The notes below the pieces were generated by a model, which was given only the letters and a program-made list of their open reading frames with translations, had not been told where the DNA came from and did no database searches. Position numbers and translations under genes: made by a program. Positions 25,220-61,406 of a DNA stretch of 64,000 nt are shown piece by piece. How positions within the stretch are numbered: position 1 is the first letter of the stretch; every line of letters begins with the position of its first letter. The DNA is taken from assembly GCA_011816565.1 (NCBI GenBank), contig GCA_011816565.1_3614.1. One strand, 5' to 3'. This DNA comes from a phage.

Positions 25220-25576
25220 ATGTCTAAAGCTACTTATCGTGCAGCTATTTACTGCAATGAACACCCCATCAATAATGATGGTCACTGCCTTTTTAAAGAA
25301 AATCAGTTGGGCTGTATTGTCCTACCTGATGAAGGGAAAGGTTATCTGATTGCATTGACAGGGTTCGAGCCTGAAGCTTTGGAAGCCAATCTGGACTATC
25401 TGGTAGAAGAGGGTGCTGCAGACCTGGTTTCCAATGGCCTCGCCATAAGCCTTGACGAGGTGGAGCGCTTCATGGGCAATTACCGTGTAGTGCGTGAGTT
25501 TACTATCGAGGTGGAAACTCCAGAGTGGGGTAGCACTGAAACTAACGCCGAAGAAAAAGAAGAGGAGGCAGAATAA
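25220..25576 (+). CDS. hypothetical protein with acidic C-terminus
   Basis: Start at internal ATG preceded by AAGGAGG (track ORF from 25199). Confidence 0.45.
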   Translation: MSKATYRAAIYCNEHPINNDGHCLFKENQLGCIVLPDEGKGYLIALTGFEPEALEANLDYLVEEGAADLVSNGLAISLDEVERFMGNYRVVREFTIEVETPEWGSTETNAEEKEEEAE

Positions 25577-25833
25577 TGAAAGTGCAGATCTTGACTAATG
25601 CCGAGAAGATGTTTATTGAAGATACACCTTTTGAAGCTGGTGAGCTACAGTTCGTTTATTTTGTTGACTTAGATAAGGTGTTCCCTGCACTGAATCTGGG
25701 TCTGGATGAAGTTCCTCATAAAGTTTTGTGCCAAGTTGTTCGTGCCTTAGCGGCAGATGGGGATTTCCACACCCTTGAAGATATCCAGACCTACGGGTAT
25801 CTTGAACTGCAACGAGAAGAAGAGGTGGACTGA
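25576..25833 (+). CDS. hypothetical acidic protein
   Basis: 85 aa; start overlaps upstream stop (TAATG). Confidence 0.45.
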   Translation: MKVQILTNAEKMFIEDTPFEAGELQFVYFVDLDKVFPALNLGLDEVPHKVLCQVVRALAADGDFHTLEDIQTYGYLELQREEEVD

Positions 25834-25835
25834 TA

Positions 25836-26216
25836 ATGGCCCGGTGGAAGACAACAGTTGACCTTCATGATCAGTGGTTAGGACGCATCGCTGAAGACGG
25901 GAAACTAGTAGAGTGGGACAATAAGCATGTTAGCGAGTTGGCAAGCATTGTGGCTGGCAAGTTACGCTCCAAGTTCCCTGAACAACTGGATCCTGATAGT
26001 TCAAAGTTCGATCCTGAGTTGGAGGATGTTGTATACTACTTCGATACCGTGGATGACTACGATGCGTGGTTTGCAGCACGGGAGCTTTACCCACAAGGCT
26101 CTGCTATGCGCCAGATGGAAGAAGATTATCCTCCGTGTGAGCAATTCAATAGTGCAATGACTTGCCTCTATGATTGGGCAGATAAGAACCTTGTCTGGAT
26201 TCGGACTGCATTTTAG
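25836..26216 (+). CDS. hypothetical acidic protein
   Basis: 126-aa ORF in operon-like array. Confidence 0.45.
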   Translation: MARWKTTVDLHDQWLGRIAEDGKLVEWDNKHVSELASIVAGKLRSKFPEQLDPDSSKFDPELEDVVYYFDTVDDYDAWFAARELYPQGSAMRQMEEDYPPCEQFNSAMTCLYDWADKNLVWIRTAF

Positions 26217-51253: not shown

Positions 51254-51712
51254 AGGAGGATTTCTAAAATGGATTTCCTCCTTTTGATATTTTACCTGCC
51301 AGGATATTTTAAAATCCTTAGAAAATCAGAAAATGGATCGAAAACTAAAATGGATTTTTCAGAGTAGGCGCGACAAGCTGAATCACTCATCCTACCGTTT
51401 GCACCATATTCCAGACCACCATTATAGATTTCCCGCACATGCTTACATCTCGCTACTAGAACTTCCTCCACTTACCCTTGACCTTTTATAGCAATAATCC
51501 AACCACTATCTTGAAGTTGCGGTGCAGCTTTCCAGGTACTCGATCTGTTTTTCGTTTCAAAGATTGAATTTTCTGAAAATTTTTCTCGATAAATTTCTCA
51601 GTACTCGATCTGTTTTTCGTTTTCTGAATCGGATTTTCTGGAAATCGCTCCGGCTCTTGGCCTAAAATTTTTGGGGACGAAATCGATTTTTCGTTTTCAG
51701 AAATGGATTTTT
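51254..51712. repeat. AT-rich iteron-like direct repeat region
   Basis: Three copies of (GTAC)TCGAT(CTG)TTTTTCGTTTTC at about 51536, 51601 and 51681, each with TTTTCTG(A/G)AAAT; at least four copies of (C/A)AAAATGGAT; hairpin AGGAGGA...TCCTCCT at 51254-51282. Confidence 0.55.
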
Positions 51713-51830
51713 AAAATTTCTATACGGGAATATTTTATGGGATACTGTTTTATAGGAAATTGTTACGGAGGGTAATTAGCGTGCTAATTAAATTTATTAA
51801 ATGCGAGGAGTTCTCATTTAGAATTTTGAA

Positions 51831-52764: not shown

Positions 52765-53163
52765 ATGAAAACCACTACCTTTAATTTTGATAATGCAGAC
52801 TTTTCTTTTTCTGATGTCAAGAACTGCCGCCGTGATCGTGGATTTTACAAGGCTTATAATCTGGTGGGCCTGGACGATGACAATAATTTGCACGAAGTAG
52901 CTGAGATCCGGTATTATGCCGCCGCCAGCGGGAACACTTACTACTGCGTTTTTTGGATACACGACAACAAGAACAATAAGTACGGCTATACTGGCGGCAA
53001 GGCGAGCGGTCACGGTTATGATAAAGCTAACGCAGCACTTGAGAGCGCATTAAATGCTATGGGGATCACTGCCAACGGCTGGATCTACGAAGAAGAGTTT
53101 TTGTCAGCACTTGCTGACCACCTAGGCTATAAAAAGCACATTGTAACATGTGCCCACGAATAA
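52765..53163 (+). CDS. hypothetical protein
   Basis: 132 aa with RBS (AAGAGGATAAAATC). Confidence 0.5.
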   Translation: MKTTTFNFDNADFSFSDVKNCRRDRGFYKAYNLVGLDDDNNLHEVAEIRYYAAASGNTYYCVFWIHDNKNNKYGYTGGKASGHGYDKANAALESALNAMGITANGWIYEEEFLSALADHLGYKKHIVTCAHE

Positions 53164-53212
53164 AAAAAAAATTATTGACACGCTGCAAAATTCAAGTAAA
53201 CTAGACACAAAA

Positions 53213-53231
53213 GGCGGGAATGTTTCCCGCC
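53213..53231 (+). other. 5' leader hairpin GGCGGGAA-TGTT-TCCCGCC
   Basis: GC-rich inverted repeat between promoter and RBS of 53251; near-identical hairpin at 55764 and related ones at 53897 and 56479. Confidence 0.5.
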
Positions 53232-53250
53232 AGCACAAAGGAAAAAGATC

Positions 53251-53655
53251 ATGAATAAGAACGTACGCCGCATCATGAACGAGTTGGCAAACGATGAAAA
53301 AATTATTGACATGCATTTGATCAACATTTGCCGCCGTTGTGTAACATATAACAACCGCGCCGCAAAAGCGCGTGAGATGAACGCAAAAGGCACCTTAAAG
53401 CCATTCCAGGTGGTGGTAAAGGCCATTAAAGATGTAACTAATACGGCAAACCAGGTACAGGGGAACACCAACGAGAGTACCAATATTGATCCGGCTTACA
53501 TCATGAAACGGATCCGGACCTGCAAGAACAAAGAGCAAGTGTATAATATCATAGACTGGTTGGATTCTATGGGCGATGTGGTTTACAATAGGTTTTCTGC
53601 AGCTATCGAGATCCAGCTTGACAGGTTGGACGGTAAAGTACTGAAAACTTACTAA
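53251..53655 (+). CDS. hypothetical protein
   Basis: 134 aa with leader hairpin and RBS. Confidence 0.5.
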   Translation: MNKNVRRIMNELANDEKIIDMHLINICRRCVTYNNRAAKAREMNAKGTLKPFQVVVKAIKDVTNTANQVQGNTNESTNIDPAYIMKRIRTCKNKEQVYNIIDWLDSMGDVVYNRFSAAIEIQLDRLDGKVLKTY

Positions 53656-53703
53656 GTTTATTTTTAGATGGCCTTGACTTCAGGGCCATCAATAAAGTAA
53701 ACT
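53656..53703. repeat. 48-bp intergenic hairpin repeat, copy 1
   Basis: GTTTATTTTTAGATGGCCTTGACTTCAGGGCCATCAATAAAGTAAACT; stem GATGGCC/GGCCATC with TTGAC in the loop. Confidence 0.55.
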
Positions 53704-53856
53704 AATCTCAACTAAGCGAAAAAATGGGGCTTTAAGATGAGCACTACACGCCAATACACAAAGGTAACTATTATCGTTTGCGTTGTCGGTTACATCCTGG
53801 CGCAAATGTTAATGAGTAGCGCTAACAGTTTTGCAAAATTTTTCTTAAATTTTTAA

Positions 53857-53884
53857 TTGACAAACTAACTTAGATCGATATACT
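53857..53884 (+). promoter_or_regulatory. sigma70-like promoter (TTGACA-N16-TATACT)
   Basis: Upstream of 53936, followed by leader hairpin GGGAA-AAC-TTCCC. Confidence 0.45.
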
Positions 53885-53935
53885 TAAACACGTAAACGGG
53901 AAAACTTCCCAGAGCACACAAAAGGAGAAAACACC

Positions 53936-54277
53936 ATGACTACTATGACCGCCGCAGAAAAAGCTATGCAGATCGCCGCGCTGAAAAAACAGATCGCAGA
54001 CCTTGAGAACAAGATCGATAACTTTGAAATCGACGAGGACAAGTACGACGAAAACTATGATGAATGGTTAGACGAGATCTACGGCGAAATTATGATCGGA
54101 AACATTTCTTTTCTTCCGTCGCGTATCCTCAAGGAGCTAGATCCTATCGCTTACCGCTGCGGATTTAGCGACTACATCGACAGCCTGGATATTGAGGAAG
54201 ATGAAGAATACCAGGAACTACAGACAGAGTTAGAAGAAGCAAAAGAAGAGCTTGCGGAGCTGGAAGAAAACGAGTAA
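53936..54277 (+). CDS. highly acidic small protein
   Basis: 113 aa, very rich in D/E (DNFEIDEDKYDENYDEWLDEIYGE...LDIEEDEEYQELQTELEEAKEELAELEENE), coiled-coil-like N-terminus. Confidence 0.5.
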   Translation: MTTMTAAEKAMQIAALKKQIADLENKIDNFEIDEDKYDENYDEWLDEIYGEIMIGNISFLPSRILKELDPIAYRCGFSDYIDSLDIEEDEEYQELQTELEEAKEELAELEENE

Positions 54278-54278
54278 G

Positions 54279-54325
54279 ATTATTTTTAGATGGCCTTGAC
54301 TCCAGGGCCATCAATAAAGTAAACT
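54279..54325. repeat. 48-bp intergenic hairpin repeat, copy 2
   Basis: TTATTTTTAGATGGCCTTGACTCCAGGGCCATCAATAAAGTAAACT directly after the stop at 54277. Confidence 0.55.
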
Positions 54326-54366
54326 TTATACTGTTAACACTGAACTAATTCAGAGGAGTTAAAACC

Positions 54367-54612
54367 ATGGCAGCACTAATCACCAAATATTATGCCCCTA
54401 CCAACACCAAAAGCGCCCGTATCATGGTAAAAGGTTTCGGACGTAAAAAGGTTTACACCTGGGATTATGCCTTAGACACGGAAGACAACTACACCAACGC
54501 AATGACCGATTTTATTAATGATCTGAACACGCGGATCTTGACAAATTATAAAATTACCGATATTGCCTATATAGGGGAAGGCGGGATCTGTTTTGTCGGT
54601 ATCGTCAAATAA
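54367..54612 (+). CDS. hypothetical small protein
   Basis: 81 aa with RBS (GGAG); followed by a degenerate copy of the hairpin repeat (54613-54660). Confidence 0.45.
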   Translation: MAALITKYYAPTNTKSARIMVKGFGRKKVYTWDYALDTEDNYTNAMTDFINDLNTRILTNYKITDIAYIGEGGICFVGIVK

Positions 54613-54687
54613 GCTGTTTTTTCGGTGGTCCTGGTAGCAGGGCCATCTATAAAGATAGTTTATCAACACAATGAAAGGAGAAAGTAC

Positions 54688-55041
54688 ATGATCAGCGGGG
54701 CAAGTTTTATTATTGGCGCTATTGCTACGGCTTTAATTGTAAACAAGATCCAATCTAAAAACGAAAAAGAGAGCAACGCGCTCACAGAATACCCATTTTG
54801 GGTATTCAACGACAATGAAGACTACATTATCAAGTACAAGAATGAGAAGGGCGACCAGGTAACACCGCGACCGATCCCAGCTTACAAGATGCAAGAAACA
54901 CTATACCGCCTAAAGGCTGGAGGCGCAAAAATCGTAGACTTTTGGGGATATGATTGCAAGGATCAGGAGGTTATAAAGCGCCGTATCCGGGCTATTCAGG
55001 CCAATATTGAAGTTAGCAAGGGGGGAATATATGAAGATTAA
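54688..55041 (+). CDS. predicted membrane-anchored protein
   Basis: Start at ATG after AAAGGAGAAAG (track ORF from 54625); N-terminal TM segment (ISGASFIIGAIATALIV). Confidence 0.45.
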   Translation: MISGASFIIGAIATALIVNKIQSKNEKESNALTEYPFWVFNDNEDYIIKYKNEKGDQVTPRPIPAYKMQETLYRLKAGGAKIVDFWGYDCKDQEVIKRRIRAIQANIEVSKGGIYED

Positions 55042-55228
55042 TTTTGAGAAGATTGTAAAGCGATCTCATGATTCCAAAGAGCTGCCGGAACGACGCCAGC
55101 GCAACAATAAACTGAATAAGCCAAAAAGATTTGGGAAGATCTGGCGGAATCATTATGATCGTAAATTGCCGGGCCTACTTTTGGAACGTGAACGACAGGC
55201 GGAACGATACCGCCACAAAGGCAAATAA
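55031..55228 (+). CDS. hypothetical small basic protein
   Basis: Start at ATG after AAGGGGGG (track ORF from 55007); Lys/Arg-rich. Confidence 0.4.
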   Translation: MKINFEKIVKRSHDSKELPERRQRNNKLNKPKRFGKIWRNHYDRKLPGLLLERERQAERYRHKGK

Positions 55229-55236
55229 CAACCAAC

Positions 55237-55264
55237 GCCCCGCCATTGTGCGGGGCTTTTTTAT
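55237..55264 (+). terminator. rho-independent terminator
   Basis: GCCCCGC-CATTGT-GCGGGGC hairpin followed by TTTTTTAT. Confidence 0.6.
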
Positions 55265-55410
55265 TTCTATCCTACGAATATCGCCCCTGGTTGGCCCTGT
55301 AAACGCCATAAAAGCCCCTACCTATGCAATCCCCTTTCTTAACCTGAAAACAGCGTCTAGGGCCGTTTTATGGCGTTAAAAATGTTATTGACAGTGATTT
55401 TATTTAAAGC

Positions 55411-55439
55411 TTGACACCTTGGAATAGTCCGGATATACT
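55411..55439 (+). promoter_or_regulatory. sigma70-like promoter (TTGACA-N17-TATACT)
   Basis: Second of two TTGACA hexamers upstream of 55475. Confidence 0.45.
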
Positions 55440-55474
55440 GACCACATCAAAGCAAGAAGGAAGGAGTAAACGCC

Positions 55475-55735
55475 ATGCGTAAATTGAAAAATTTTGATAA
55501 GGTAGATGTAGTACTGAATAATTTTTACTACTGCAATAATAAAGCCGTTTGGTGGCGTGATAGTTCCACCGATAAAGTTAAGGCGCGCTTTCTCCAAGGG
55601 CACTGGCAAAGCCGTCCAGTGATTAAAATCTTGGGGCAATTGGTAGCGTTTAAAAATTGCCGCCGTGTTGACGACGTTGAAGAGATCTTGAACATTTTGC
55701 GCCACAATAATTTAAAAAATAGTGTTGACAAGTAA
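55475..55735 (+). CDS. hypothetical small protein
   Basis: 86 aa with RBS (GGAAGGAG). Confidence 0.45.
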   Translation: MRKLKNFDKVDVVLNNFYYCNNKAVWWRDSSTDKVKARFLQGHWQSRPVIKILGQLVAFKNCRRVDDVEEILNILRHNNLKNSVDK

Positions 55736-55752
55736 ATCTCAATAAGTATAAT
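55725..55752 (+). promoter_or_regulatory. sigma70 consensus promoter (TTGACA-N16-TATAAT)
   Basis: Followed by leader hairpin GGCGGGAAAACTTCCCGCC (55764-55781) and RBS of 55810. Confidence 0.55.
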
Positions 55753-55809
55753 TAAAAACACAGGCGGGAAAACTTCCCGCCACTAACAAAGAAAACAGGA
55801 GAAAATATC

Positions 55810-56433
55810 ATGACCACCGTTAACATTACCACAGGTTGCAATTTATCTTTCGACGTGCTGACCGACGAACAAAAAGAAAAAGCTATTGAAATGGTCCGCG
55901 AAAGAGAAGAACACAGCGGAGAGGATTTTTTCGCAGAAAGTGTAATTGAATATTATAAAGAGCAAGTTTTTCCAGAGTACGGCCTTGAAGATACCGATGT
56001 ACATTGGTCCGGCTTTTGGTGCCAGGGTGACGGCGCGTCAATCAGTGCTGAAAACGTGGATTTAGAAAAATTCTTGCGTAAAGTAAAGGCCCTGACCAAG
56101 TTCCGATCAATTCGTCACTTGTTTGGCACAATGCATGATGGCGAGTTATCAGCCAGTATTGAACGCGACAAGTACAGCCATTACAGCCATGAAAACACTG
56201 TAAGCGGATACATTGATACCACCTGGCTAGATCTGACCGCCAAACAAGAAAACAAAGTGGAAGACCTGGAAGAGCTGATCACCGAGACGGTACGGGAGCT
56301 ATCCCGCAAGGTTTACGTAGACCTGGAGGAGGCCTATCTAGAACAGTTCACTACCGAAAACCTGATCGGCCTTATTGAGGCCAATGATTGGCGGTTTGAT
56401 GTGGATGAATATGGAGAGATGAGTTTTTCATAA
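55810..56433 (+). CDS. hypothetical acidic protein
   Basis: 207 aa; promoter, leader hairpin and RBS (AGGAGAAAA) upstream. Confidence 0.55.
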   Translation: MTTVNITTGCNLSFDVLTDEQKEKAIEMVREREEHSGEDFFAESVIEYYKEQVFPEYGLEDTDVHWSGFWCQGDGASISAENVDLEKFLRKVKALTKFRSIRHLFGTMHDGELSASIERDKYSHYSHENTVSGYIDTTWLDLTAKQENKVEDLEELITETVRELSRKVYVDLEEAYLEQFTTENLIGLIEANDWRFDVDEYGEMSFS

Positions 56434-57818: not shown

Positions 57819-58019
57819 ATGAGCAACAATATCCGCGTTATTAACTTCAAAAAAGAAGAAAAAATTGCCGTGCTGATTGACGGTCAAGAAATCTTCAAGG
57901 GCTATTATGAAGATCATCAAACTGCGATTAGTATCACTCGCGTGATCGGTTACCATAATTTCTACCCCCAAGGCGCTGAGGCAGCAGTTAAACGAATCAA
58001 AGAGATTGTAGGCCTGTAA
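57819..58019 (+). CDS. hypothetical small protein
   Basis: 66 aa; TTGCAA...ATATGGATAATAA promoter-like sequence and RBS (AAAGGAGAAAC) upstream. Confidence 0.45.
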   Translation: MSNNIRVINFKKEEKIAVLIDGQEIFKGYYEDHQTAISITRVIGYHNFYPQGAEAAVKRIKEIVGL

Positions 58020-58068
58020 ATTTATTTTTAGATGGCCTTGACGCCAGGGCCATCAGTAAAGTAAATTT
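58019..58068. repeat. 48-bp intergenic hairpin repeat, copy 3
   Basis: TTTATTTTTAGATGGCCTTGACGCCAGGGCCATCAGTAAAGTAAATT directly after the stop at 58019. Confidence 0.55.
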
Positions 58069-58111
58069 TAATCGTGGTAAAATAACACGCAGTTAACAAG
58101 GAGTGATAAAC

Positions 58112-61133: not shown

Positions 61134-61406
61134 GTGTCAAGCTGGATTAATCAAGAAGTAGAATCACGTTTTAATGCTATCTGGGATCTCATCGAAAAAG
61201 AGGACGGAACATCAAGCCCCTACCTCAACAATTTGGAATTCCATTTTGTGGAAGCGATGAACGCAGAACATGATCACGAAGGTGGCGCGGATGATTTCGC
61301 TAAAGGTTATGGCTTTAACAATGCCAACGAAATGATCGAGGCGGTCGTACTCCAGGCTGAGGAAGATTATCAATTAAAAACGCTTGAATTCTGCCGCCAT
61401 AAGTAA
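61134..61406 (+). CDS. hypothetical acidic protein
   Basis: GTG start after AGAGAGGAAAACAC; 90 aa. Confidence 0.45.
   Translation: MSSWINQEVESRFNAIWDLIEKEDGTSSPYLNNLEFHFVEAMNAEHDHEGGADDFAKGYGFNNANEMIEAVVLQAEEDYQLKTLEFCRHK

What the first reader, a model, noticed from the sequence alone, without database searches (positions are those of the whole stretch)
53936..54277. Very acidic small early protein: candidate DNA mimic
The 113-aa product is dominated by Asp/Glu runs with a predicted coiled-coil N-terminus and sits behind a strong promoter and leader hairpin. Small, highly acidic early proteins often act as DNA mimics that block restriction enzymes or other DNA-binding host proteins. Other acidic early ORFs are at 25576-26216, 55810-56433 and 61134-61406.
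Basis: inference. Interest (0 to 1): 0.48.

Follow-up and report, generated by a model that had tools for sequence, protein, structure and literature searches.

The report
Acidic early phage protein, unknown family
A real, very acidic 113-residue early gene of an rV5-like coliphage belongs to a huge uncharacterised family of lytic-phage proteins with no fold relative among solved structures, and published transposon data on a near-identical gene suggest it matters only in certain clinical E. coli hosts; whether it mimics DNA is untested.

Summary
ORF 53936-54277 (+) encodes 113 aa with 31% Asp+Glu, net charge -26 and pI 4.05, the most acidic of about 94 ORFs in the window. It sits behind an 11/12 sigma-70 promoter.

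The window is a Vequintavirus (rV5-like). The gene is rv5_gp187 / bas54_0108 and is under purifying selection (dN/dS about 0.16).

It is more than an acidic tail. A 48-residue alpha/beta core (YDxxLDExYG...SRxLKELDPIAYRCGFSDY) defines a family of at least 3,576 clusters at 50% identity. 99.5% of the 184 members examined have pI below 5. I found the family in lytic phages and viral metagenomes, almost never in plasmids or bacterial genomes, and usually in early regions.

Published HIDEN-SEQ data on the 93%-identical Bas54 ortholog call it non-essential in K-12, unaffected in isolate CFE311 and depleted in isolate CFE303. Insertions near the 3' end were tolerated. Vequintaviruses are reported as exceptionally restriction-sensitive, which argues against an Ocr-like role.

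Best reading: an early, host-specific counter-defence or takeover factor that binds a basic host surface. DNA mimicry is possible but unproven.

The parts
53857..53884 (+). Sigma-70-type early promoter (TTGACA-16-TATACT)
   Evidence: Matches 11 of 12 consensus positions. The orthologous site is annotated 'Sigma70-type promoter; P192' in the rV5 record. A similar promoter-plus-hairpin cassette recurs at 55725-55778.
53898..53910 (+). Short leader hairpin GGGAA-AAC-TTCCC in the 5' UTR
   Evidence: 5-bp stem, -6 kcal/mol, not better than shuffles (z -0.36). The motif recurs after two other promoters (53216-53228, 55766-55778): 3 matches against 0.23 expected.
53922..53927 (+). Shine-Dalgarno AAGGAG, 8 nt before the ATG
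   Evidence: Read directly from the sequence.
53936..54277 (+). CDS of 113 aa, pI 4.05, net charge -26. Ortholog of rv5_gp187 (ORF 192), bas54_0108, bas59_0104, bas56_0103. Member of PHROG 9294.
   Evidence: phrog_9294, E 1.3e-53; 93% identity to bas54_0108; dN/dS 0.155.
53951..54019 (+). N-terminal amphipathic helix (residues 6-28), net charge about 0; one arm of an antiparallel helical hairpin
54041..54187 (+). Conserved 48-49-residue alpha/beta core (residues 36-84): helix, beta-hairpin, helix, helix, with near-invariant Y41 D46 S62 L65 E67 D69 P70 I71 A72 Y73 C75 G76 D79 Y80
54203..54268 (+). C-terminal Glu-rich helix (residues 90-111, net about -11); the second arm of the hairpin
   Evidence: AF2 H90-111. 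Its sequence varies across the family while its charge is kept. TA sites at codons 95, 98 and 102 of bas54_0108 lie in the trimmed last 20%, where high insertion counts were reported in CFE303.
54274..54328 (+). Repeated 55-nt intergenic stem-loop element overlapping the stop codon (10-bp GC-rich upper stem, AU-rich lower stem). It marks the 3' boundary of the gene cassette.
   Evidence: Four copies at 53652, 54274, 54609 and 58016. RNA folds of -22 to -28 kcal/mol, z -4.2 to -7.2. The divergent copy keeps the structure. No U-tract follows it and there is no Rfam match.

Best explanation
This is an early, accessory (conditionally required) phage protein that neutralises a strain-specific host barrier by stoichiometric protein binding.

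Proposed mechanism:
1. Host RNA polymerase transcribes the gene from its own sigma-70 promoter soon after DNA entry.
2. The product folds into a compact conserved 48-residue alpha/beta core, carried at the closed end of an antiparallel two-helix arm.
3. The core, which is itself acidic, is the recognition module.
4. The strongly negative surface lets it occupy a basic, probably nucleic-acid-binding, surface of a host protein. The most likely target is a component of an anti-phage defence present in some E. coli isolates (CFE303) and absent from K-12.
5. The helical arms add length, charge and possibly dimerisation, and are partly dispensable.

Shown here or in the cited paper: the ORF, its charge, the promoter match, the family and its conserved core, the lack of known relatives, dispensability in K-12, and the reported depletion in CFE303.

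Inferred: early timing for this particular gene, the binding mechanism, the nature of the target, and any nucleic-acid mimicry.
For: Expression setting:
- An 11/12 promoter match, an RBS and a cassette structure.
- Family members lie within the first few kb of Autographiviridae genomes, directly after annotated sigma-70 early promoters. Providencia PS3 has two paralogs, gp02 and gp05. Pelagibacter HTVC109P has gp03.
- In 18 viral contigs of 33-46 kb the gene sits a median 11% of contig length from an end.
- PAK_P5 gp086 falls, by gene number, inside the gp74-gp112 block that RNA-seq defined as early in PAK_P3, a phage of the same species; its direct PAK_P3 ortholog was not mapped.

Accessory, host-specific role (HIDEN-SEQ preprint, doi 10.1101/2025.11.20.689424):
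- bas54_0108, 93% identical and syntenic, is 'Non-essential' in K-12, with 18 of 19 TA sites hit.
- It is unaffected in isolate CFE311 (log2FC -0.52, p 0.58).
- It 'showed clear depletion' in isolate CFE303 once 3'-end sites were trimmed.

Binding module with an acidic surface:
- The core is near-invariant across at least 3,576 clusters at 50% identity.
- In 184 diverse members the median net charge is -23, and 99.5% have pI below 5.
- The arms vary in sequence but stay acidic, and 64-aa core-only versions exist.
- Paralog and tandem duplications occur, as is typical of arms-race genes.

Other support:
- dN/dS is 0.155.
- Confident models: pLDDT 91.9 for the whole protein and 94.3 for the core.
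- The family is absent from plasmids and almost absent from 185,579 bacterial genomes under a strict motif scan. This fits a function tied to lytic infection.
Against: - No binding partner, defence system or biochemical activity is known for any family member.
- The CFE303 phenotype is a single sentence in the Methods of a preprint. The deposited sheet labelled CFE303 actually holds the CFE311 run, so I could not see the numbers. No clean knockout or defence pairing was reported for this gene.
- The gene is present in essentially all vequintaviruses, and its core is highly conserved across phages of Proteobacteria and Actinobacteria. That fits a conserved housekeeping target better than a patchily distributed defence system.
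- Most near-invariant residues (S62, D69-P70, G76, aromatic residues) look like fold determinants, so conservation does not identify a binding surface.
- Early timing has not been measured for this gene.
Confidence: 0.45

Rival explanations
1. Ocr-type anti-restriction DNA mimic. The acidic protein imitates B-form DNA and blocks type I restriction-modification or BREX enzymes, so that unmodified phage DNA survives entry.
For: - Size, pI 4.05 and net charge -26 resemble Ocr-class proteins.
- It is an early gene. Family members occupy the position where Ocr sits in T7-like genomes.
- Acidity is conserved family-wide.
Against: - There is no sequence or profile similarity to any solved protein, DNA mimics included, and no fold match.
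- The BASEL study found Vequintavirinae, which carry this gene at 93-98% identity, 'exceptionally susceptible' to RM systems and apparently lacking 'any effective protection'.
- The family is absent from plasmids, unlike ArdA/Ocr-type functions, which as far as I recall also occur on plasmids.
- The Glu-rich C-terminal part appears dispensable.
- The core sequence is strongly conserved. From my own knowledge, DNA mimics usually conserve charge pattern rather than sequence.
Confidence: 0.08
2. General host-takeover factor. It binds a conserved housekeeping nucleic-acid-handling protein of the host, such as a nucleoid protein, RecBCD/AddAB-type nuclease, RNA polymerase or an RNase, in the manner of T7 gp5.9, gp2 or gp5.5. 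The phenotype in CFE303 would then be an indirect consequence of strain physiology.
For: - The core is conserved across phages of very different hosts: E. coli, Pseudomonas, Vibrio, Pelagibacter, Clavibacter, Gordonia and Microbacterium. This suggests a target conserved among bacteria.
- It is present in essentially every vequintavirus.
- It is restricted to lytic phages, with none on plasmids or in bacterial genomes, as expected if the activity harms the host.
- The PAK_P3 authors propose that small early proteins act through protein-protein interactions with host machinery.
Against: - The gene is fully dispensable in K-12 and in CFE311, so any takeover function is redundant there.
- The only reported phenotype is strain-specific.
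- No partner is known.
Confidence: 0.25
3. Phage-internal role. It acts as a coiled-coil adaptor, chaperone or regulator of phage proteins or transcripts (for example timing of middle transcription or an assembly step) rather than on the host.
For: - It is conserved throughout the genus.
Against: - It is non-essential in K-12, with 18 of 19 TA sites disrupted.
- The family occurs in phages with unrelated morphogenesis and transcription schemes: T7-like podoviruses, rV5-like and PAK_P-like myoviruses, and actinophages. No conserved neighbouring partner gene was found.
- The strain-specific phenotype points to the host.
Confidence: 0.07

Closest known systems
T7 Ocr (gp0.3), DNA-mimic inhibitor of type I RM and BREX
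   Same: Small (about 115 aa), pI about 4, largely helical, expressed from host-RNAP early promoters. Family members occupy the same first-entering region of T7-like genomes.
   Different: No sequence, profile or fold similarity. This family has a strongly conserved alpha/beta core with optional arms. Phages carrying it are reported as highly RM-sensitive. It is absent from plasmids.
T7 gp5.9 and lambda Gam, helical/coiled-coil DNA mimics that block RecBCD
   Same: Short acidic helical proteins made early. Charge is displayed on coiled-coil-like helices. Recent work shows DNA mimics can modulate defences such as Druantia III and Zorya II.
   Different: No detectable homology. Here the helices are the variable, partly dispensable part, and the conserved element is a globular core. 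No RecBCD link has been tested.
Counter-defence genes of unknown fold found by HIDEN-SEQ (T4 nrdC.1 against Septu; bas37_0203 against Druantia III; bas54_0140 and bas54_0063 against DS-28)
   Same: It was detected in the same way. The ortholog bas54_0108 is dispensable in K-12 and reported as depleted in a uropathogenic isolate, CFE303, which also carries Druantia III.
   Different: For bas54_0108 no clean knockout, no cloned-defence pairing and no visible numbers exist. I did not compare its sequence with those genes.
PHROG families 9294, 9396 and 37123 (all 'unknown function')
   Same: The protein matches phrog_9294 over its full length (E 1.3e-53). Its core matches phrog_9396 and phrog_37123. 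These three families share the same core domain.
   Different: None. This is where the protein belongs, but the families carry no function.

Membership tests
DNA-mimic proteins (functional class) | Very low pI and high density of Asp/Glu | tested here: met
   pI 4.05, 31% D+E, net -26. Family-wide, the median net charge is -23 and 99.5% of members have pI below 5.
DNA-mimic proteins (functional class) | Surface carboxylates arranged with the spacing of DNA phosphates, usually on a dimer | not testable with these tools
   Model coordinates are not exposed and no multimer prediction is available. Only secondary structure and pLDDT were returned.
DNA-mimic proteins (functional class) | Competitive binding to the DNA-binding site of a target protein | not testable with these tools
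   This needs biochemistry or complex prediction. No partner is known.
Solved DNA-mimic families (from memory: Ocr, ArdA, Arn, gp5.9, Gam) | Detectable sequence or profile homology to a solved member | tested here: not met
   phmmer with the protein and hmmsearch with the core profile against all PDB chains gave only chance hits (best E 0.4 and 0.048, to unrelated proteins). There were no Pfam or NCBIfam hits above cut-off.
Solved DNA-mimic families (from memory: Ocr, ArdA, Arn, gp5.9, Gam) | Shared fold | tested here: not met
Ocr-like anti-restriction function | Phage carrying the gene is protected from type I (and other) RM systems | tested here: not met
   Literature, not my experiment. BASEL Vequintavirinae, which have orthologs at 93-98% identity, are 'exceptionally susceptible' to RM systems (PMC8594841).
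PHROG 9294 / 9396 / 37123 core-domain family | Full-length or core HMM match | tested here: met
   phrog_9294 E 1.3e-53 over residues 1-113, phrog_9396 E 1.2e-10, phrog_37123 E 3.5e-10. The core profile finds 3,576 representative clusters.
Early (host-RNAP-transcribed) phage genes | Sigma-70 consensus promoter directly upstream, and location in the early gene array | tested here: met
   An 11/12 match, also annotated as P192 in rV5. Homologs lie in early regions of T7-like and PAK_P3-like phages.
Early (host-RNAP-transcribed) phage genes | Transcript detected in the first minutes of infection | not tested
   I found no vequintavirus time-course transcriptome.
Phage counter-defence / conditionally essential accessory genes | Dispensable in a permissive laboratory host | tested here: met
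   Literature on the 93%-identical ortholog bas54_0108: 18 of 19 TA sites disrupted, class 'Non-essential'.
Phage counter-defence / conditionally essential accessory genes | Required in hosts that carry a specific defence, with the requirement abolished when that defence is removed | tested here: inconclusive
   The Methods text reports 'clear depletion' in CFE303 after trimming the 3' end. There is no effect in CFE311. The CFE303 table is not in the deposited file, and no defence pairing has been done.

The most novel reading that the evidence does not exclude
The protein is the first functionally flagged member of a very large family found almost only in lytic phages (at least 3,576 clusters at 50% identity). 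In this reading, its previously undescribed 48-residue acidic alpha/beta fold is a portable inhibitor module against a widespread nucleic-acid-processing immune effector. One candidate is a helicase-nuclease such as Druantia III DruE, which is present in CFE303. That would be a new structural class of nucleic-acid mimic or defence inhibitor shared by phages of Proteobacteria and Actinobacteria.
Probability: 0.18. Interest if true: 0.75.

Novelty: new variant of a known kind. Interest (0 to 1): 0.5.

Why it matters
Small acidic early proteins are a known way for phages to disarm hosts, but only a handful of families have been characterised.

This family is large: thousands of sequence clusters, in coliphages used for therapy, Pseudomonas PAK_P-type therapeutic phages, marine SAR11 phages and actinophages. 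Its confidently predicted fold has no solved relative, and no member has an assigned function.

A published transposon screen already hints that the rV5-type member decides success on a uropathogenic E. coli isolate. Identifying its target would annotate a sizeable part of phage 'dark matter'. It could explain host-range differences of vequintaviruses on clinical strains, and it might add a new inhibitor scaffold.

If it turns out to be just another redundant early gene, the result would still correct the over-easy equation 'acidic means DNA mimic'.

Tried and rejected
- **Family libraries.** Pfam gave only sub-threshold coiled-coil noise such as GvpG, SlyX and STAT. NCBIfam gave nothing. The source annotations 'GvpG', 'SbcCD ATPase' and 'Zn-ribbon protein' are coiled-coil artefacts.
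- **Domain fusions as functional clues.** Longer homologs carry only unknown PHROG domains (4264, 11100, 30009), a zinc ribbon, or are polyprotein-like. None has a Pfam hit.
- **Guilt by association.** The window neighbours are all PHROGs of unknown function. Neighbours in marine, Providencia and Pelagibacter loci are uninformative. Clustering of 1,763 neighbour ORFs from 84 loci found no universal partner.
- **Second copy in the window.** None.
- **Other collections.** The only plasmid hit is a mis-filed rV5-like genome. A strict-motif scan of bacterial genomes gave a single 5.6-kb Agromyces scaffold.
- **Literature.** Searches for a characterised member, a vequintavirus transcriptome or an anti-Druantia protein of this type found nothing specific.
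- **HIDEN-SEQ raw data.** I tried to retrieve per-TA-site counts and the CFE303 resampling values for bas54_0108. The stored sheets are truncated, and the sheet labelled CFE303 contains the CFE311 run.
- **Nucleotide-sponge idea (Tad/Acb-like).** Rejected by inference. A protein with net charge -26 and no conserved basic pocket is an unlikely binder of anionic nucleotides.
- **Rfam.** No match for the flanking stem-loop elements.

Full report

The region is 95-99% identical to many Vequintavirus (rV5-like) coliphage genomes.

It has 12 Asp and 23 Glu against 7 Lys and 2 Arg. That gives net charge -26 and pI 4.05. The charge is concentrated in residues 21-50 and 76-113. It is the most acidic of about 94 non-overlapping ORFs in the window (-0.23 charge per residue; the next is -0.153).

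A TTGACA-16-TATACT promoter (11 of 12) lies at 53857-53884. The rV5 record annotates it as 'Sigma70-type promoter; P192' in front of rv5_gp187 / ORF 192.

The 'leader hairpin' is a 5-bp stem that is no better than shuffled sequence. The same GGGAA-N3-TTCCC motif does follow two other promoters nearby.

The gene is conserved in more than 100 vequintavirus genomes. Median dN/dS is 0.155, so it is a real, selected protein-coding gene.

**What the protein is**

It matches PHROG 9294 over its full length (E 1.3e-53). Its centre also matches PHROGs 9396 and 37123. All three are of unknown function. Pfam and NCBIfam give only sub-threshold coiled-coil noise.

A word-indexed search found 72 relatives. 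Aligning them showed that the conserved part is not the acidic runs. It is a 48-49-residue core (residues 36-84), with consensus YDxMLDExYGxVxxxGxxFxxSRxLKELDPIAYRCGFSDY. Fourteen positions are at least 90% conserved. The N- and C-terminal helices vary in sequence and are missing altogether from 64-aa marine versions.

An exhaustive HMM search with the core profile found 3,576 representative clusters (50% identity) at E<=1e-3, of which 1,371 score at E<=1e-10. Most are 50-150 aa. Some have tandem duplications of the core or unknown extra domains.

Across 184 diverse members the median net charge is -23, and 99.5% have pI below 5. Acidity is therefore a selected property of the whole family, including the core-only forms (net -11 over 64 aa).

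**Structure**

AlphaFold2 with the family alignment gives a confident model (mean pLDDT 91.9). Helix 6-28 and helix 90-111 form an antiparallel hairpin. A small helix / beta-hairpin / helix / helix domain (residues 34-83) sits at its closed end.

Profile and sequence searches of all PDB chains give chance hits only. The protein therefore shows no detectable relationship to any solved protein, which would include solved DNA-mimic families such as Ocr, ArdA, Arn, gp5.9 and Gam (that list is from memory).

By position in the predicted secondary structure, many invariant residues look like fold determinants. S62 and D69-P70 sit at helix N-termini, and there is G76 plus aromatic residues. This is my inference, and it means the conservation does not point to a catalytic site.

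**Where the family lives**

- Among deposited phages it occurs in vequintaviruses; Pseudomonas PAK_P/KPP10-type myoviruses; Vibrio, Serratia, Klebsiella, Acinetobacter and Salmonella myoviruses; Providencia, Proteus and Pelagibacter podoviruses; and Clavibacter, Microbacterium and Gordonia phages.
- In Providencia phage PS3 two paralogs (gp02, gp05) lie in the first 3.2 kb, directly after the annotated sigma-70 early promoters.
- In Pelagibacter phage HTVC109P it is gp03.
- In 18 viral contigs of 33-46 kb it lies a median 11% of contig length from an end.
- PAK_P5 gp086 falls, by gene number, inside gp74-gp112, the block that RNA-seq defined as early in PAK_P3, a phage of the same species; its direct PAK_P3 ortholog was not mapped.
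- The only 'plasmid' hit is a mis-filed rV5-like genome.
- A strict-motif scan of 185,579 bacterial species genomes found a single small Agromyces scaffold.

The family is thus essentially confined to lytic phages and viral metagenomes. Neighbouring genes are small ORFs of unknown function, and no universal partner emerged.

**Functional evidence from the literature**

Two published data sets bear directly on the interpretation.

[quoted passage not shown] These phages carry orthologs at 93-98% identity (bas52_0107, bas53_0106, bas54_0108, bas56_0103, bas59_0104). This argues against an Ocr-like anti-restriction role.

Second, the HIDEN-SEQ preprint (doi 10.1101/2025.11.20.689424) mapped transposon insertions across Bas54 (phage MaxBurger). 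By coordinates, synteny and 93% identity, bas54_0108 (83882-84232) is the ortholog of this ORF.

- It is classed 'Non-essential' in K-12, with 18 of 19 TA sites hit.
- It shows no effect in isolate CFE311 (log2FC -0.52, p 0.58).
[quoted passage not shown] The authors therefore trimmed the last 20% of the ORF.

The TA sites in that last 20% are at codons 95, 98 and 102, plus one that overlaps the stop codon. They lie inside the Glu-rich C-terminal helix. The most 'DNA-mimic-looking' part thus seems dispensable, which agrees with the existence of core-only homologs. This is my inference from one sentence.

No knockout or defence pairing was reported for this gene. The deposited sheet labelled CFE303 actually contains the CFE311 run, so I could not see the numbers. 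CFE303 carries Druantia III, among systems not fully listed. A separate preprint shows that DNA-mimic proteins can modulate Druantia III and Zorya II. That makes a link conceivable but nothing more.

**Most likely mechanism**

Putting this together, the best-supported reading is as follows. It is an early, accessory protein that is needed only in certain hosts. It acts by stoichiometric binding through its conserved acidic core to a basic, probably nucleic-acid-binding, surface of a host protein. The target is most likely a strain-specific defence component. The helical arms add reach, charge or dimerisation.

I put this at about 0.45. The main rival (0.25) is a general takeover factor aimed at a conserved housekeeping protein. 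The breadth of hosts, the presence of the gene in every vequintavirus and the restriction to lytic phages fit that better. Complete dispensability in K-12 and CFE311 and the strain-specific phenotype fit it less well.

A phage-internal adaptor role gets about 0.07. Whether the protein mimics DNA in the structural sense could not be tested, because no coordinates, multimer prediction or biochemistry were available.

**Comparison with what is known, and novelty**

It may work like Ocr, gp5.9 or Gam in being a small acidic early protein that plausibly blocks a host protein. It fails every membership test I could run for those families: sequence, profile, fold and the RM-protection phenotype.

It is a member of the PHROG 9294/9396/37123 family, which has no known function. 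The gene is already deposited as 'hypothetical protein' in many genomes and has been flagged, without follow-up, in one screen.

I rate it a new variant of a known kind: an uncharacterised family with an unmatched fold, within the familiar class of small acidic early phage effectors. Interest is moderate (0.5). The family is very large and includes therapeutic phages, and a concrete genetic handle exists (CFE303 against K-12). The mechanism is still inference.

Noticed in passing
window 53652-53706, 54274-54328, 54609-54663, 58016-58070: A 55-nt intergenic element occurs four times, each directly after a stop codon. It folds into a two-tier stem-loop: a 10-bp GC-rich upper stem (GATGGCC...GGCCATC) on a 7-13-bp AU-rich lower stem, -22 to -28 kcal/mol, z -4.2 to -7.2. 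The divergent third copy keeps the structure through changes on both sides. No U-tract follows it, so it is not a canonical terminator. The loop carries TTGAC, with TAAACT 18 nt downstream. There is no Rfam match. It could be an RNase III processing site or a promoter-stem-loop cassette like those in T4-type phages (the latter from memory).
   Followed up: partly
window 53175-53231, 53857-53910, 55725-55778: Three early promoter cassettes share the layout TTGACA, spacer, -10 box, about 10 nt, then a (GGC)GGGAA-N3-TTCCC(GCC) hairpin at the start of the transcript. The motif gives 3 matches against 0.23 expected. Its function is unknown.
   Followed up: partly
window 53251-53655 (+), the 134-aa basic protein two genes upstream (a 39-aa ORF lies between): Its Bas54 ortholog bas54_0106 (87% identical) is significantly depleted in the HIDEN-SEQ run on isolate CFE311 (log2FC -3.18, adjusted p 0.00000) although non-essential in K-12. 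The preprint's text does not discuss it. It is a second candidate host-specific factor in this gene array.
   Followed up: partly
window 53737-53856 (+): A 39-aa hydrophobic ORF (ortholog of rv5_gp188 / bas54_0107) ends immediately before the -35 box of the target gene's promoter. Some records annotate a 'putative membrane protein' in this interval.
   Followed up: no
window 51529-51719: Three direct repeats of about 52 nt (62-100% identical; spacing 65 and 74 nt) lie in a stretch without a long ORF. Unexplained.
   Followed up: no
It is two adjacent ORFs, 25576-25833 (85 aa, pI 4.24) and 25836-26216 (126 aa, pI 4.40), preceded by another acidic ORF at 25220-25576 (118 aa, pI 4.22).
   Followed up: yes
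proteins P0073-P0083; locus L017 588-2267: Long metagenomic homologs (211-837 aa) start with two tandem copies of the core domain. They continue as strings of unrelated small domains separated by a recurring 'AETFGAE'-like linker, and several of them end in a predicted membrane anchor. They look like polyproteins or modular surface proteins of an unidentified virus. They have no Pfam hits.
   Followed up: partly
GenBank MG065644-MG065682 ('Campylobacter phage' records), matched by window 53000-55500: Seventeen records labelled Campylobacter jejuni phages match this E. coli vequintavirus region, the ones listed at 96-99% identity. Several are fragmentary and unannotated. Mislabelling or contamination is likely.
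   Followed up: no
Supplementary file 9 of doi 10.1101/2025.11.20.689424 (Extended Data Table 8): The sheet titled 'Data S6 resampling_K-12_vs_CFE303' records a command line and values for the CFE311 library, identical to the next sheet. The CFE303 result that concerns this gene is therefore not in the deposited table as stored.
   Followed up: yes
Its Bas54 ortholog bas54_0113 is non-essential in K-12 and unaffected in CFE311 (log2FC 0.06). No Pfam domain.
   Followed up: partly
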